Assembly: GCF_009914755.1 (NCBI RefSeq)
Contig: NC_060925.1
Length of the DNA stretch: 64,000 nucleotides
Direction: 5' to 3' (one strand)
DNA from: the human T2T-CHM13v2.0 reference genome, Homo sapiens
Under the pieces are notes generated by a model. It searched no databases. It saw only the letters and a list, made by a program, of their open reading frames with translations, and had not been told where the DNA came from. The position numbers and the translations under genes are program-made. Shown piece by piece: positions 13,432 to 19,335 of this stretch. How positions within the stretch are numbered: the stretch's first letter is position 1; each line of letters opens with the position of its first letter.

Positions 13432-14399
13432 TGTGGGGAAAAGCAAGAGAGATCAGATTGTTACTGTGTCTGTGTAGAAAGAAGTAGACATAGGAGACTC
13501 CATTTTGTTATGTACTAAGAAAAATTCTTCTGCCTTGAGATTCTGTTAATCTATAACCTTACCCCCAACCCCGTGCTCTCTGAAACGTGTGCTGTGTCAA
13601 CTCAGAGTTAAATGGATTAAGGGCGGTGCAAGATGTGCTTTGTTAAACAGATGCTTGAAGGCAGCATGCTCCTTAAGAGTCATCACCACTCCCTAATCTC
13701 AAGTACCCAGGGACACAAAAACTGCGGAAGGCCGCAGGGACCTCTGCCTAGGAAAGCCAGGTATTGTCCAAGGTTTCTCCCCATGTGATAGTCTGAAATA
13801 TGGCCTCGTGGGAAGGGAAAGACCTGACCATCCCCCAGCCCGACACCCGTAAAGGGTCTGTGCTGAGGAGGATTAGTAAAAGAGGAAGGAATGCCTCTTG
13901 CAGTTGAGACAAGAGGAAGGCATCTGTCTCCTGCCTGTCCCTGGGCAATGGAATGTCTCGGTATAAAACCCGATTGTATGCTCCATCTACTGAGATAGGG
14001 AAAAACTGCCTTAGGGCTGGAGGTGGGACCTGCGGGCAGCAATACTGCTTTGTAAAGCATTGAGATGTTTATGTGTATGCATATCTAAAAGCACAGCACT
14101 TAATCCTTTACATTGTCTATGATGCAAAGACCTTTGTTCACGTGTTTGTCTGCTGACCCTCTCCCCACAATTGTCTTGTGACCCTGACACATCCCCCTCT
14201 TCGAGAAACACCCACAAATGATGAATAAATACTAAGGGAACTCAGAGGCTGGCGGGATCCTCCATATGCTGAACGCTGGTTCCCCGGTTCCCCTTATTTC
14301 TTTCTCTATACTTTGTCTCTGTGTCTTTTTCTTTTCCAAATCTCTCGTCCCACCTTACGAGAAACACCCACAGGTGTGTAGGGGCAACCCACCCCTACA
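13432..14399 (+). mobile_element. HERV-K(HML-2) solo LTR, LTR5_Hs
   Basis: TGTGGGGAAAAGCAAGAGAG...CCCACCCCTACA, exactly 968 bp; 6-bp TSD ATGGAA (13426-31, 14400-05); AATAAA 14224-29; OCT4-like ATGCAAAG at 14122. Confidence 0.96.
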
Positions 14400-15056
14400 A
14401 TGGAAGATGAAATGAATGAAATGAAGCGAGAAGGGAAGTTTAGAGAAAAAAGAATAAAAAGAAATGAGCAAAGCCTCCAAGAAATATGGGACTATGTGAA
14501 AAGACCAAATCTACGTCTGATTGGTGTACCTGAAAGTGACGGGGAGAATGGAACCAAGTTGGAAAATACTCTGCAGGATATTATCCAGGAGAACTTCCCC
14601 AATCTAGCAAGGCAGGCCAACATTCAGATTCAGGAAATACGGAGAACGCCACAGAGATACTCCTCGAGAACAGCAACTCCAAGACACATAATTGTCAGAT
14701 TCACCAAAGTTGAAATGAAGGAAAAAATGTTAAGGGCAGCCAGAGAGAAAGGTCGGGTTACCCTCAAAGGGAAGCCCATCAGACTAACAGCAGATCTCTC
14801 AGCAGAAACCCTACAAGCCAGGAGAGAGTGGGGGCCAATATTCAACATTCTTAAAGAAAAGAATTGTCAACCCAGAATTTCATATCCAGCCAAACTAAGC
14901 TTCATAAGCGAAGGAGAAATAAAATACTTTACAGACAAGCAAATGCTGAGAGATTTTGTCACCACCAGGCCTGCCCTAAAAGAGCTCCTGAAGGAAGCAC
15001 TAAACATGGAAAGGAACTACCGGTACCAGCCGCTGCAAAATCATGCCAAAATGTAA
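14400..15056 (+). CDS. L1 ORF1 C-terminal half (residues 121-338: end of coiled coil, RRM, CTD), open to the natural stop
   Basis: 218-aa ORF starting at the TSD ATG; REKG, ARREW and YPAKLS motifs intact; R211T; expression unproven. Confidence 0.75.
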   Translation: MEDEMNEMKREGKFREKRIKRNEQSLQEIWDYVKRPNLRLIGVPESDGENGTKLENTLQDIIQENFPNLARQANIQIQEIRRTPQRYSSRTATPRHIIVRFTKVEMKEKMLRAAREKGRVTLKGKPIRLTADLSAETLQARREWGPIFNILKEKNCQPRISYPAKLSFISEGEIKYFTDKQMLRDFVTTRPALKELLKEALNMERNYRYQPLQNHAKM

Positions 15057-15119
15057 AGACCATCTAGACTAGGAAGAAACTGCATGAACTAACGAGCAAA
15101 ATAACCAGCTAACATCATA

Positions 15120-18100
15120 ATGACAGGATCTAATTCACACATAACAATATTAACTTTACATGTAAATGGACTAAATGCTCCAATGGAAAGACACAGACTG
15201 GCAAATTGGATAAAGAGTCAAGACCCATCAGTGTGCTGTATTCAGGAAACCCATCTCACGTGCAGAGACACACATAGGCTCAAAATAAAAGGATGGAGGA
15301 AGATCTACCAAGCAAATGGAAAACAAAAAAAGGCAGGGGTTGCAATCCTAGTCTCTGATAAAACAGACTTCAAACCAACAAAGATCAAAAGAGACAAAGA
15401 AGGCCATTACATAATGGTAAAGGGATCAATTCAACAAGAAGAGCTAACTATCCTAAATATATATGCACCCAATACAGGAGCACCCAGATTCATAAAGCAA
15501 GTCCTGAGTGACCTACAAAGAGACTTAGACTCCCACACATTAATAATGGGAGACTTTAACACCCCACTGTCAACATTAGACAGATCAATGAGACAGAAAG
15601 TCAACAAGGATACCCAGGAATTGAACTCAGCTCTGCACCAAGCGGACCTAATAGACATCTACAGAACTCTCCACCCCAAATCAACAGAATATACATTTTT
15701 TTCAGCACCACACCACACCTATTCCAAAATTGACCACATACTTGGAAGTAAAGCTCTCCTCAGCAAATGTAAAAGAACAGAGATTATAACAAACTATCTC
15801 TCATACCACAGTGCAATCAAACTAGAACTCAGGATTAAGAATCTCACTCAAAACCACTCAACTACATGGAAACTGAACAACCTGCTCCTGAATGACTACT
15901 GGGTACATAATGAAATGAAGGCAGAAATAAAGATGTTCTTTGAAACCAATGAGAACAAAGACACAACATACCAGAATCTCTGGGACACATTCAAAGCAGC
16001 GTGTAGAGGGAAATACATAGCACTAAATGCCCACAAGAGAAAGCAGGAAAGATCCAAAATTGACACCCTAACATCACAATTAAAAGAACTAGAAAAGCAA
16101 GAGCAAACACATTCAAAAGCTAGCAGAAGGCAAGAAATAACTAAAATCAGAGCAGAACTGAAGGAAACAGAGACACAAAAAACCCTTCAAAAAATTAATG
16201 AATCCAGGAGCTGGTTTTTTGAAAGGATCAACAAAATTGATAGACCGCTAGCAAGACTAATAAAGAAAAAAAGAGAGAAGAATCAAATAGACACAATAAA
16301 AAATGATAAAGGGGATATCGCCACCAATCCCACAGAAATACAAACTACCATCAGAGAATACTACAAATATCTCTACGCAAATAAACTAGAAAATCTAGAA
16401 GAAATGGATAAATTCCTCGACACATACACTCTCCCAAGACTAAACCAGGAAGAAGTTGAATCTCTGAATAGACCAATAACAGGCTCTGAAATTGTGGCAA
16501 TAATCAATAGCTTACCGACCAAAAAGAATCCAGGACCAGATGGATTCACAGCCAAATTCTACCAGAGGTATAAGGATGAGCTGCTACCATTCCTTCTGAA
16601 ATTATTCCAATCAATAGAAAAAGAGGGACTCCTCCCTAACTCATTTTATGAAGCCAGCATCATTCTGATACCAAAGCCGGGCAGAGACACCACCAAAAAA
16701 GAGAATTTTAGACCAATATCCTTGATGAACATTGATGCAAAAATCCTCAATAAAATACTGGCAAAACGAATCCAGCAGCACATCCAAAAGCTTATCCACC
16801 ATGATCAAATCGGCTTCATCCCTGGGATGCAAGGCTGGTTCAATATACGCAAATCAATAAATGTAATCCAGCATATAAACAGAACCAAAGACAAAAACCA
16901 CATGATTATCTCAATAGATGCAGAAAAAGCCTTTGACAAAATTCAACAACCCCTCATGCTAAAAACTCTCAATAAATTAGGCATTGATGGGACGTATTTC
17001 AAAATAATAAGAGCTATCTATGACAAACCCACAGCCAATATCATACTGAATGGGCAAAAACTGGAAGCATTCCCTTTGAAAACTGGCACAAGACAGGGAT
17101 GCCCTCTCTCACCACTCCTATTCAACATAGTGTTGGAAGTTTTGGCCAGGGCAATTAGGCAGGAGAAGGAAATAAAGGGTATTCAATTAGGAAAAGAGGA
17201 AGTCAAATTGTCCCTGTTTGCAGATGACATGATTGTATATCTAGAAAACCCCATTGTCTCAGCCGAAAATCTCCTTAAGCTGATAAGCAACTTCAGCAAA
17301 GTCTCAGGATACAAAATCAATGTGCAAAAATCACAAGCATTCCTATACACCAACAACAGACAAACAGAGAGCCAAATCATGAGTGAAATCCCATTCACAA
17401 TTGCTTCAAAGAGAATAAAATACCTAGGAATCCAACTTACAAGGGATGTGAAGGACGTCTTCAAGGAGAACTACAAACCGCTGCTCAAGGAAATAAAAGA
17501 GAATACAAACAAATGGAAGAACATTCCATGCTCATGGGTAGGAAAAGTCAATATCGTGAAAATGGCCATACTGTCCAAGGTAATTTACAGATTCAATGCC
17601 ATCCCTATCAAGCTACCAATGACTTTCTTCACAGAATTGGAAAAAACTACTTTAAAGTTCATATGGAACCAAAAAAGAGCCCGCATCGCCAAGGCAATCC
17701 TAAGCCAAAAGAACAAAGCTGGAGGCATCACACTACCTGACTTCAAACTATACTACAAGGCTACAGTAAGCAAAACAGCATGGTACTGGTACCAAAACAG
17801 AGATATAGATCAATGGAACAGAACAGAACCCTCAGAAATAACGCCGCATATCTACAACTATCTGATCTTTGACAAACCTGAAAAAAACAAGCAATGGGGA
17901 AAGGATTCCCTATTTAATAAATGGTGCTGGGAAAACTGGCTAGCCATATGTAGAAAGCTGAAACTGGATCCCTTCCTTACACCTTATACAAAAATCAATT
18001 CAAGATGGATTAAAGACTTACAAGTTAGACCTAAAACCATAAAAACCCTAGAAGAAAACCTAGGCATTACCATTCAGGACATAGGCTTGTGCAAGGACTT

Positions 18101-18947
18101 CATGTCTAAAATACCAAAAGCAACGGCAACAAAAGCCAAAATTGACAAATGGGATCTAATTAAACTAAAGTGCTTCTGCGCAGCAAAAGAAACTACCATC
18201 AGAGTGAACAGGCAACCTACAAAATGGGAGAAAATTTTCGCAACCTACTCATCTGACAAAGGGCTAATATCCAGAATCTACAATGAACTCAAACAAATTT
18301 ACAAGAAAAAAACAAACAACCCCATCAAAAAGTGGGCGAAGGACATGAACAGACACTTCTCAAAAGAAGACATTTATGCAGCCAAAAAACACATGAAAAA
18401 ATGCTCATCATCACTGGCCATCAGAGAAATGCAAATCAAAACCACAATGAGATACCATCTCACACCAGTTAGAATGGCAATCATTAAAAAGTCAGGAAAC
18501 AACAGGTGCTGGAGAGGATGTGGAGAAATAGGAACACTTTTACACTGTTGGTGGGACTGTAAACTAGTTCAACCATTGTGGAAGTCAGTGTGGCGATTCC
18601 TCGGGGATCTAGAACTAGAAATACCATTTGACCCAGCCATCCCATTACTGGGTATATACCCAAAGGACTATAAATCATGCTGCTATAAAGACACATGCAC
18701 ACGTATGTTTATTGCGGCATTATTCACAATAGCAAAGACTTGGAACCAACCCAAATGTCCAACAATGATAGACTGGATTAAGAAAATGTGGCACATATAC
18801 ACCATGGAATACTATGCAGCCATAAAAAATGATGAATTCATGTCCTTTGTAGGGACATGGATGAAATTGGAAATCATCATTCTCAGTAAACTATCGCAAG
18901 AACAAAAAACCAAACACCACATATTCTCACTCATAGGTGGGAATTGA
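15120..18947 (+). CDS. L1 ORF2p (endonuclease-reverse transcriptase), full 1275 aa; EN site mutated, RT intact
   Basis: Uninterrupted frame; [22 protein letters not shown] box QTTIREYY and CCHC (HCWWDC) present; N14H (CAT 15159-61), D229Y (TAC 15804-06). Confidence 0.95.
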
Positions 18948-19335
18948 ACAATGAGATCACCTGGACACAGGAAGGGGAATATCACACTCTGGTGACTGTT
19001 GTGGGGTGGGGGGAGGGGGGAGGGATAGCATTGGGAGATATACCTAATGCTAGATGACGAGTTAGTGGGTGCAGCGCACCAGCATGGCACATGTATACAT
19101 ATGTAACTAACCTGCACAATGTGCACATGTACCCTAAAACTTAAAGTGTAATAAATAAATAAATAAATAAATAAATCCAAAAAAAAACAGTATTAAAAAA
19201 AAAAAAAGAAAATTCATTACCACTAGACCAGTTTTATAAGAGACACTTAAAGGAGTTCTAAATGTGGAAATAAAAGAATAATACTTGCTACCACAAAAAC
19301 ACATAAGTACATAGTCCACAGAACCTATAAAAAAT

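What the first reader, a model, noticed from the sequence alone, without database searches (positions are those of the whole stretch)
13432..19205. Promoter-swap chimera: HERV-K LTR5_Hs sits directly upstream of an ATG-initiated half-ORF1 and an uninterrupted L1 ORF2
Seen: the LTR is sense to the L1. Its last base (14399) abuts the duplicated ATGGAA, which is ORF1 codon M121. Downstream there is an open 218-aa ORF1 (RRM+CTD) ending at its natural stop, the normal spacer, an open 1275-aa ORF2 and the L1 poly(A) site. The LTR retains an OCT4-like ATGCAAAG (14122) next to a SOX-like CATTGT (14111). Established: LTR5_Hs is an active promoter/enhancer in early embryos, naive pluripotent cells, germ cells and germ-cell tumours. 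ORF2 is translated by termination/reinitiation after an upstream ORF. ORF2p alone can mobilise Alu. Inference: this may be a retrovirus-promoted L1 ORF2 expression unit, independent of the L1 5'UTR and its silencing.
Basis: partly seen in the sequence, partly recalled or inferred. Interest (0 to 1): 0.85.

Follow-up and report, generated by a model that had tools for sequence, protein, structure and literature searches.

The report
Known HERV-K solo LTR inside L1
This is the solo-LTR form of a known, human-specific HERV-K insertion (K116, 1p31.1) inside a young L1 element, and the L1's long open ORF2 has changes at two endonuclease active-site residues, so it is most likely a decaying relic and not a working retrovirus-driven L1 gene.

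Summary
A 968-bp LTR5_Hs (13432-14399, +) with a 6-bp ATGGAA duplication sits in ORF1 of a same-sense L1. Downstream lie an open 218-aa ORF1 remainder, a 63-nt spacer, an open 1275-aa ORF2 and the L1 poly(A) end.

Three things change the interpretation.
- It is not a promoter swap. The L1 is full length (12173-19205, 19-bp duplication) and keeps its 896-nt 5'UTR.
- The locus is in print as HERV-K(HML-2) 1p31.1/K116/ERVK-1. It is human-specific, provirus/solo-LTR dimorphic, antisense in SLC44A5 and "inserted into human-specific L1PA2". This assembly carries the solo allele.
Nine of 9 closest genomic L1 copies and the solved human ORF2p have N and D.

Published assays found this locus's LTR a weak promoter in Tera-1 cells. 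NCCIT long reads showed 3 reads, none running past the provirus. LTR5HS CRISPRa raised SLC44A5, which fits enhancer action.

An LTR-started ORF1-remnant/ORF2 RNA is structurally possible but unshown. Alu mobilisation by this ORF2p is unlikely. Interest is low.

The parts
12147..12165 (+). Left copy of the 19-bp L1 target-site duplication
   Evidence: Identical 19-mer at 12147 and 19206, with no extension either side
12166..12172 (+). Seven extra bases at the L1 5' junction
   Evidence: They lie between the duplication and the L1 start GGAGGAGCCAAGATGG
12173..13068 (+). L1 5'UTR, 896 nt, retained upstream of the LTR
   Evidence: Sequence read. It is 91-96% identical to the 5'UTRs of 7 of 9 relatives that gave a match. 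It has 27 CpG
13069..13431 (+). ORF1 N-terminal part, with an in-frame TGA at 13375-13377 (codon 103) and a one-codon deletion; ends with the left ATGGAA copy (13426-13431)
   Evidence: Translation. Seven of 8 relatives read C at the stop position and 8 of 8 read SPPPK where this copy reads SPPK
13432..14399 (+). Solo LTR5_Hs of HERV-K(HML-2) 1p31.1/K116. U3 holds the SOX/OCT string (14111-14129). AATAAATA at 14224, CTCAGA at 14241, E-box CTCCATATGCTG at 14260 (contains the upstream ATG at 14266)
   Evidence: 968 bp, TG..CA, 6-bp duplication. Termini match published 5Hs primers. 99.07-99.38% identical to 11 of 11 fetched copies. Motif positions. Locus identity
14400..15056 (+). ORF1 remainder, 218 aa, starting at the right ATGGAA copy (14400-14405): last part of the coiled coil, RRM, CTD
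   Evidence: Matches solved human ORF1p 2yko at E 1.5e-128
15057..15119 (+). ORF1-ORF2 spacer, 63 nt
   Evidence: Coordinates
15120..18947 (+). ORF2, 1275 aa, open. N14H (base 15159) and D229Y (base 15804) lie in the endonuclease active site. The RT FADD box and the Cys-rich motif are intact
18948..19205 (+). L1 3'UTR, (AATA)n with AATAAA signals, A-tail
19206..19224 (+). Right copy of the 19-bp L1 target-site duplication

Best explanation
This is a three-level nest of dead mobile elements.
1. A full-length young L1, called human-specific L1PA2 in print, inserted by ordinary target-primed reverse transcription into an older L1.
2. A HERV-K(HML-2) provirus (K116, 1p31.1) then integrated into its ORF1 in the same orientation.
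3. On this haplotype the two identical LTRs recombined to leave a solo LTR.

The ORF1 remainder and ORF2 stay open because the L1 is young, not because they are used. ORF2 already has substitutions at two endonuclease active-site residues, so any protein made would most likely lack nicking activity (inferred).

The LTR most likely acts as LTR5_Hs copies usually do. It would be a pluripotency-type distal enhancer, here plausibly for SLC44A5. It would also supply a poly(A) site that ends sense transcripts coming from the L1 5'UTR (inferred). At most it is a weak promoter of read-out RNA.
For: Anatomy.

Locus identity:
- It is human-specific and under 2 My old.
- It is dimorphic for provirus and solo LTR, lies in SLC44A5, and its two LTRs have no differences. 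hg38 coordinates are 75377086-75383458. It is antisense to SLC44A5.
- The own-genome hit is C1:75219432-75220399.

Endonuclease active site:
- The solved human ORF2p has N14 and D229 where this copy has H and Y.
- Nine of 9 closest genomic copies have N and D.
- In 35 distant homologues, N is at 14 in 21 of 23 with a residue there, and D is at 229 in 11 of 14. That matches the accepted catalytic columns: E43 21/24, D145 17/25, N147 19/25, H230 12/15.
- Passages name N14 as critical and D229 as metal-binding/catalytic.

Chance openness of ORF2: 1 of 9 relatives also has an intact ORF2, and 107 human ORF2-L1s are catalogued.

LTR function:
- This locus's 5'LTR showed low activity and low FPKM in Tera-1 cells.
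- NCCIT direct RNA sequencing gave 3 reads, 0 in any non-canonical class including extension past the 3' end.
- Solo LTRs there served mostly as poly(A) sites (100 of 194 reads) versus initiation (44 of 194).
- LTR5HS CRISPRa raised SLC44A5 by log2FC 2.30 (padj 3.8e-14). The nearest LTR5HS was this locus's 3' LTR.
- Chimeric LTR5HS transcripts were seen at only 4 of 275 regulated genes.
Against: - The LTR keeps every promoter motif checked: 7 of 7 present, and only 2 sites differ from all 11 relatives.
- The junction ATG has a strong context.
- The published assays used the proviral 5' LTR or cell lines whose genotype at this locus I do not know. The solo allele and naive/embryonic cells were never examined.
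- CRISPRi did not significantly lower SLC44A5 (-0.48, padj 0.26), so native enhancer use is unproven.
- With 60 substitutions placed at random, an open ORF2 occurred in only 3.9% of 5000 trials. Synonymous changes are somewhat in excess (22 observed, 15.7 expected, P = 0.044). This could hint at past constraint. It is equally explained if part of the 60 differences arose in the active source lineage.
- N14H and D229Y were never assayed. One library homologue also has H at position 14.
Confidence: 0.85

Rival explanations
1. One reading: the solo LTR5_Hs works as a promoter in early embryos, naive pluripotent or germ cells. It would drive a bicistronic RNA that yields ORF1p(121-338) and ORF2p, and that ORF2p would mobilise Alu or other RNAs.
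For: - Same-sense arrangement, with the start sites at LTR nt 793/826 at or after the LTR poly(A) signal.
- Short leader with one weak upstream ATG and a strong main ATG context.
- Normal spacer and open ORF2.
- The SOX/OCT region nt 650-700, needed for LTR activity in NCCIT cells, is intact.
- Solo LTRs do initiate reads in NCCIT cells (44 of 194 reads).
- The ORF1 remainder resembles the crystallised trimeric core.
Against: - N14H and D229Y in the endonuclease active site.
- Weak promoter activity and near-absent transcripts at this locus.
- Nineteen sense AATAAA/ATTAAA signals lie in the L1 body before the true end.
- A 49-codon upstream ORF overlaps the start if the TSS lies upstream of 14266.
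- No transcript evidence could be obtained here.
Confidence: 0.05
2. A weaker version: the LTR does produce some read-out RNA into the L1 in LTR5_Hs-active cells, giving an endonuclease-defective but RT-competent ORF2p, or only a non-coding RNA, with no retrotransposition consequence.
For: All the structural points of the first rival. In addition the RT motifs and the Cys-rich motif are intact.
Against: Low expression in Tera-1 and NCCIT cells. ORF2p is hard to detect even from active L1s; that point comes only from a title seen in the listing.
Confidence: 0.3
3. ORF2 is kept open by selection, as a domesticated RT-only protein.
For: Mild synonymous excess (22 observed against 15.7 expected, P = 0.044) and a 3.9% chance of openness under 60 random substitutions.
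Against: - The element is human-specific and young.
- The 60 differences were counted against relatives chosen on the endonuclease segment only. Those relatives are about 97% identical elsewhere, so many differences may predate insertion.
- One of 9 relatives is also open.
- Active-site residues are hit.
Confidence: 0.02

Closest known systems
HERV-K(HML-2) 1p31.1 = K116 = K4 = ERVK-1 (renamed 1p31.1b)
   Same: SLC44A5 intron, antisense to the gene, + strand, 968-bp LTR, inserted into an L1PA2, dimorphic provirus/solo LTR. I take it to be this very locus.
   Different: The reference assemblies hold the 6373-bp provirus (968 + 4437 + 968 bp). This assembly holds the solo LTR. The passages and sections I read said nothing about the state of the host L1's ORF2.
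L1Base2 class 'ORF2-L1' (intact ORF2, disrupted ORF1; 107 in the human reference)
   Same: Open 1275-aa ORF2 and a broken ORF1. The database authors raise the same idea that such loci might drive Alu.
   Different: Here ORF1 is broken by an LTR insertion plus a stop codon, and the endonuclease active site carries two substitutions. I could not check whether this element is among the 107.
LTR5_Hs as distal enhancer or occasional alternative promoter (CARGO CRISPRa/i study in NCCIT cells)
   Same: This LTR is the nearest LTR5HS to SLC44A5, which rose under CRISPRa.
   Different: Chimeric LTR5HS transcripts were reported at 4 of 275 regulated genes (NBPF12, SLC4A8, FA2H, TIMM50). None of them is an L1 ORF2 unit.
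Laboratory endonuclease-dead L1 mutants (D145A, D205A, H230A)
   Same: Substitutions at conserved active-site residues. Those mutants lose nicking and retrotransposition.
   Different: N14H and D229Y are natural and untested. Their effect is inferred from conservation.

Membership tests
LTR5_Hs (HERV-K HML-2 LTR) | About 968 bp, TG...CA termini, 5-6-bp target-site duplication | tested here: met
   968 bp, TG/CA, ATGGAA on both sides
LTR5_Hs (HERV-K HML-2 LTR) | Termini match published subfamily-specific primers | tested here: met
   The first 20 bases equal the 5Hs forward primer core. The last 27 bases match the 5Hs 3'-LTR reverse primer with one mismatch
LTR5_Hs (HERV-K HML-2 LTR) | High identity to the young genomic copies, including proviral LTR pairs | tested here: met
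   All scored places were 98-100% identical (40 of 2614 candidates scored). They include a pair exactly one 9457-bp K119 provirus length apart on C12. Eleven of 11 fetched copies were 99.07-99.38% identical
LTR5_Hs (HERV-K HML-2 LTR) | SOX2/OCT4 motif cluster at nt 650-700 | tested here: met
   CATTGT at LTR nt 680 and ATGCAAAG at nt 691. The region is functionally defined in the passages
Locus K116 / 1p31.1 | Lies in SLC44A5, antisense, nested in an L1PA2, LTR of 968 bp | tested here: met
   Hub annotation of the window,
Locus K116 / 1p31.1 | Coordinate lift-over hg38 75377086 to this assembly 75219432 | not testable with these tools
   No lift-over tool is available. The offset of about -157.7 kb agrees with my recalled hg38 start of SLC44A5 to within about 0.5 kb (recall, not a call)
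Retrotransposition-competent L1 | Intact ORF1 | tested here: not met
   Split by the LTR, with a TGA at codon 103
Retrotransposition-competent L1 | Intact ORF2 reading frame with the RT FADD box and Cys-rich motif | tested here: met
Retrotransposition-competent L1 | Conserved endonuclease catalytic residues | tested here: not met
   N14H and D229Y. E43, D145, N147, D205 and H230 are retained
L1Base2 'ORF2-L1' | Intact ORF2 with disrupted ORF1 | tested here: met
   Class definition
LTR-promoted chimeric transcription unit | Transcripts that start in the LTR and run into the downstream ORFs | not testable with these tools
   No expression data can be queried here. Published data at the locus: 0 of 3 NCCIT reads extend past the provirus, and activity in Tera-1 cells is low

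The most novel reading that the evidence does not exclude
On solo-LTR haplotypes only, LTR5_Hs fires in the early embryo, naive pluripotent cells or germ cells. There it would make a natural endonuclease-defective, RT-competent ORF2p together with an N-truncated ORF1p. That would be a polymorphic human source of RT-only L1 protein, separated from the L1 5'UTR by the LTR's own poly(A) site.
Probability: 0.07. Interest if true: 0.55.

Novelty: already known. Interest (0 to 1): 0.22.

Why it matters
The evidence points to an ordinary nested insertion at a catalogued polymorphic HERV-K site.

Two points are useful:
- An open 1275-aa ORF2 should not be read as a functional ORF2. This one has two active-site substitutions.
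- The T2T-CHM13 assembly carries the solo-LTR allele where hg19/hg38 carry the provirus. That matters for mapping HML-2 and L1 reads at SLC44A5.

Tried and rejected
- L1 subfamily naming. No repeat library was available. I rely on the published label 'human-specific L1PA2' and on an 896-nt 5'UTR.
- Closer L1 relatives. Own-genome searches with two further ORF2 segments gave at best 97-98% identity, with 40 of about 5500 candidates scored each time. I therefore could not separate lineage differences from post-insertion mutations. The figure of 60 'private' sites is an upper bound.
- Published duplication or flank sequence of K116.
- Earlier findings of this scan were not open.
- Prior work on an LTR5-promoted ORF2 unit. 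The search listed 12 of 23 papers, and none is about such a unit by its title or by the opening lines of its abstract shown in the listing. This is a listing only and is not proof of absence.
- The idea that the SOX/OCT pair is special to this copy was rejected. It is shared by 9 of 11 relatives.
- The idea that an ATG exactly at the junction is meaningful was rejected. It is simply part of the 6-bp duplication inside ORF1.

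
Full report
**What is in the sequence**

Positions 13432-14399 form a 968-bp element that begins TG and ends CA. It is flanked on both sides by ATGGAA, at 13426-13431 and 14400-14405.
- Its first 20 bases equal the core of a published 'LTR5Hs forward' primer. 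Its last 27 bases match the published '5Hs 3'-LTR reverse' primer with one mismatch.
- In the window's own genome every scored match was 98-100% identical (40 of 2614 first-look candidates were scored). The matches include pairs spaced as known proviruses. One pair on C12 spans 9457 bp, the published size of K119.
- Eleven of 11 fetched copies are 99.07-99.38% identical. This LTR differs from all 11 at only two positions.
- It is therefore a very young LTR5_Hs. Only one copy is present here, so it is a solo LTR.

**The host element**

The LTR lies inside a full-length L1, not at the head of a truncated one.
- The L1 runs from 12173 to the A-tail ending at 19205. It is bracketed by a perfect 19-bp duplication at 12147-12165 and 19206-19224, with seven extra bases at the 5' junction.
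- Its 896-nt 5'UTR and the ORF1 N-terminal part (13069-13431) are still upstream of the LTR. 'Promoter swap' is therefore not accurate.
- The upstream ORF1 part is in frame with the left ATGGAA and has a TGA at codon 103. Seven of 8 relatives read Cys there. It also lacks one codon that 8 of 8 relatives have. This is why the junction Met is codon 120 here and 121 in standard numbering.
- Downstream, the ORF1 remainder (14400-15056, 218 aa) matches the Pfam L1 trimerisation, RBD-like and dsRBD-like domains. It also matches the solved human ORF1p core. The spacer is 63 nt, and ORF2 (15120-18947) is open for 1275 aa with RVT_1 and Exo_endo_phos matches.
- The L1 itself sits in an older, same-sense L1. 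Its ORF1-like sequence is at 11706-12165 and its ORF2-like sequence at about 19745-21498.

**The locus is already in print**

- Table 3 of PMC3625200 lists K116 at hg19 chr1:75842771-75849143 as 'Inserted into human-specific L1PA2', with LTRs of 968 bp and a 4437-bp interior (passages).
- Table 1 of PMC3228705 gives the same coordinates, + orientation, human-specific, under 2 My (passages).
- PMC4422153 states that this provirus lies within SLC44A5, has solo-LTR and provirus alleles, and has no differences between its two LTRs (passages).
- PMC6298018 gives hg38 75377086-75383458 with the provirus as the reference allele. PMC13238051 says it is antisense to SLC44A5.
- A 2026 preprint adds tandem arrays on 9 of 584 haplotypes (passages).
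- The window's LTR is at C1:75219432-75220399, in an SLC44A5 intron, antisense to the gene (hub annotation).
- I could not run a lift-over. The match rests on gene, strand, LTR length and the L1PA2 host. I also recall an hg38 gene start that is consistent with the offset.
- On this basis the assembly carries the solo-LTR allele of K116.

**ORF2 is open but not intact in function**

- Against the solved human ORF2p (8uw3, 9k6g) I count 56 differences in 1275 residues from the printed alignments.
- Two differences are at N14 (now H) and D229 (now Y).
- Nine of 9 closest genomic copies of the endonuclease segment have N and D.
- From the 150 listed library homologues I took the 35 with at most 68% identity that reach residue 9 or earlier, or residue 233 or later. 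I dropped the other 115.
  - N is at position 14 in 21 of 23 sequences that have a residue there.
  - D is at position 229 in 11 of 14.
  - That is as conserved as E43 (21/24), D145 (17/25), N147 (19/25) and H230 (12/15).
- Passages call N14 and E43 'critical for endonuclease function' (PMC4176336). They list D229 as putative metal-binding and catalytic (PMC3670995).
- Alanine mutants of neighbouring catalytic residues abolish nicking and retrotransposition (PMC1950540).
- The RT FADD box and the Cys-rich motif are unchanged.
- That this ORF2p lacks nicking activity is an inference. Neither substitution has been assayed.

**Is the open frame surprising?**

- Against 9 relatives, which are only about 97% identical over the whole ORF2, the window differs from at least 8 of 9 at 60 sites: 22 synonymous and 38 non-synonymous.
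- Placing 60 substitutions of the same spectrum at random left ORF2 open in 3.9% of 5000 trials. The expected synonymous count was 15.7, and the chance of 22 or more was 0.044.
- The relatives were chosen on the endonuclease segment only, and no closer relatives were scored. Part of the 60 differences therefore probably arose in the active source lineage. That explains the synonymous excess and makes the true post-insertion load smaller.
- One of the 9 relatives also has an intact ORF2. L1Base2 lists 107 human L1s with intact ORF2 and disrupted ORF1 (passages).
- The open frame is within what chance gives for a young element.

**Could the LTR drive the ORFs?**

Structurally, yes.
- The motifs described for active LTR5_Hs promoters are all present at the expected places: the GA-rich motif, three E-boxes, a CCCCC GC box near nt 762, AATAAATA and CTCAGA.
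- The reported start sites, nt 793 or 826, correspond to about 14224-14257. LTR-started RNA would therefore lack the AATAAA and read out into the L1.
- One upstream ATG (14266) has C at -3 and C at +4. It opens a 49-codon ORF that overlaps the main start. The main ATG has A at -3 and G at +4.
- Sense RNA from the L1 5'UTR would meet the LTR poly(A) signal at 14224 and would probably end there (inference). In NCCIT cells solo LTRs served mostly as poly(A) sites, 100 of 194 reads (section read).

The data that exist for this locus are weak for promoter use.
- NCCIT direct RNA sequencing found 3 reads for the provirus against 6137 for the top locus. None extended past the 3' end.

The perturbation data fit enhancer action better.
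- Under LTR5HS CRISPRa, SLC44A5 rose by log2FC 2.30 (padj 3.8e-14). CRISPRi gave -0.48 (padj 0.26). The nearest LTR5HS was chr1:75382490-75383458, the 3' LTR of this provirus, 228 kb from the TSS (supplement 3).
- That study found chimeric LTR5HS transcripts at only 4 of 275 regulated genes.
- The hub's RefSeq note also places an 'enhancer' feature over 13420-14201.

**Verdict**

The best explanation (confidence 0.85) is a known polymorphic HERV-K solo LTR nested in a decaying young L1. ORF2 is open by chance and is hit in the endonuclease active site, and the LTR is more likely an enhancer or terminator than an ORF2 promoter.

Low-level LTR read-out RNA remains possible (about 0.3). Alu mobilisation by this ORF2p is unlikely (about 0.05).

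What stays open is transcription from the solo allele in naive or embryonic cells, and whether H14/Y229 are fixed in humans.

Noticed in passing
11706-12165 and about 19745-21498: The L1PA2 is itself inserted in an older, same-sense L1. The upstream flank is ORF1-like (41% aa identity) and the downstream flank is ORF2-like (40-59%). This makes a three-level nest.
   Followed up: partly
19336-19417: A 36-bp unit repeated 2.3 times (95% matches), just downstream of the L1 duplication.
   Followed up: no
19150-19176: An (AATA)n run of 6.8 copies supplies three overlapping AATAAA signals at the L1 3' end.
   Followed up: no
12166-12172: Seven bases lie between the left L1 duplication and the first L1 base. 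They are probably untemplated or microhomology-derived filler from 5' end joining.
   Followed up: no
13683-14060, minus strand: A 125-aa ATG-initiated ORF lies antisense within the LTR U3. It is probably a chance ORF and was not examined.
   Followed up: no
L017 (G000:C14:95501600-95509800): A related L1 elsewhere in the genome also has an intact 1275-aa ORF2, while its ORF1 carries stops. It is another member of the 'ORF2-L1' class.
   Followed up: partly
14400-15056: The ORF1 remainder is open here, whereas 5 of 8 relatives have a stop at its tenth codon (MK*EGK).
   Followed up: no
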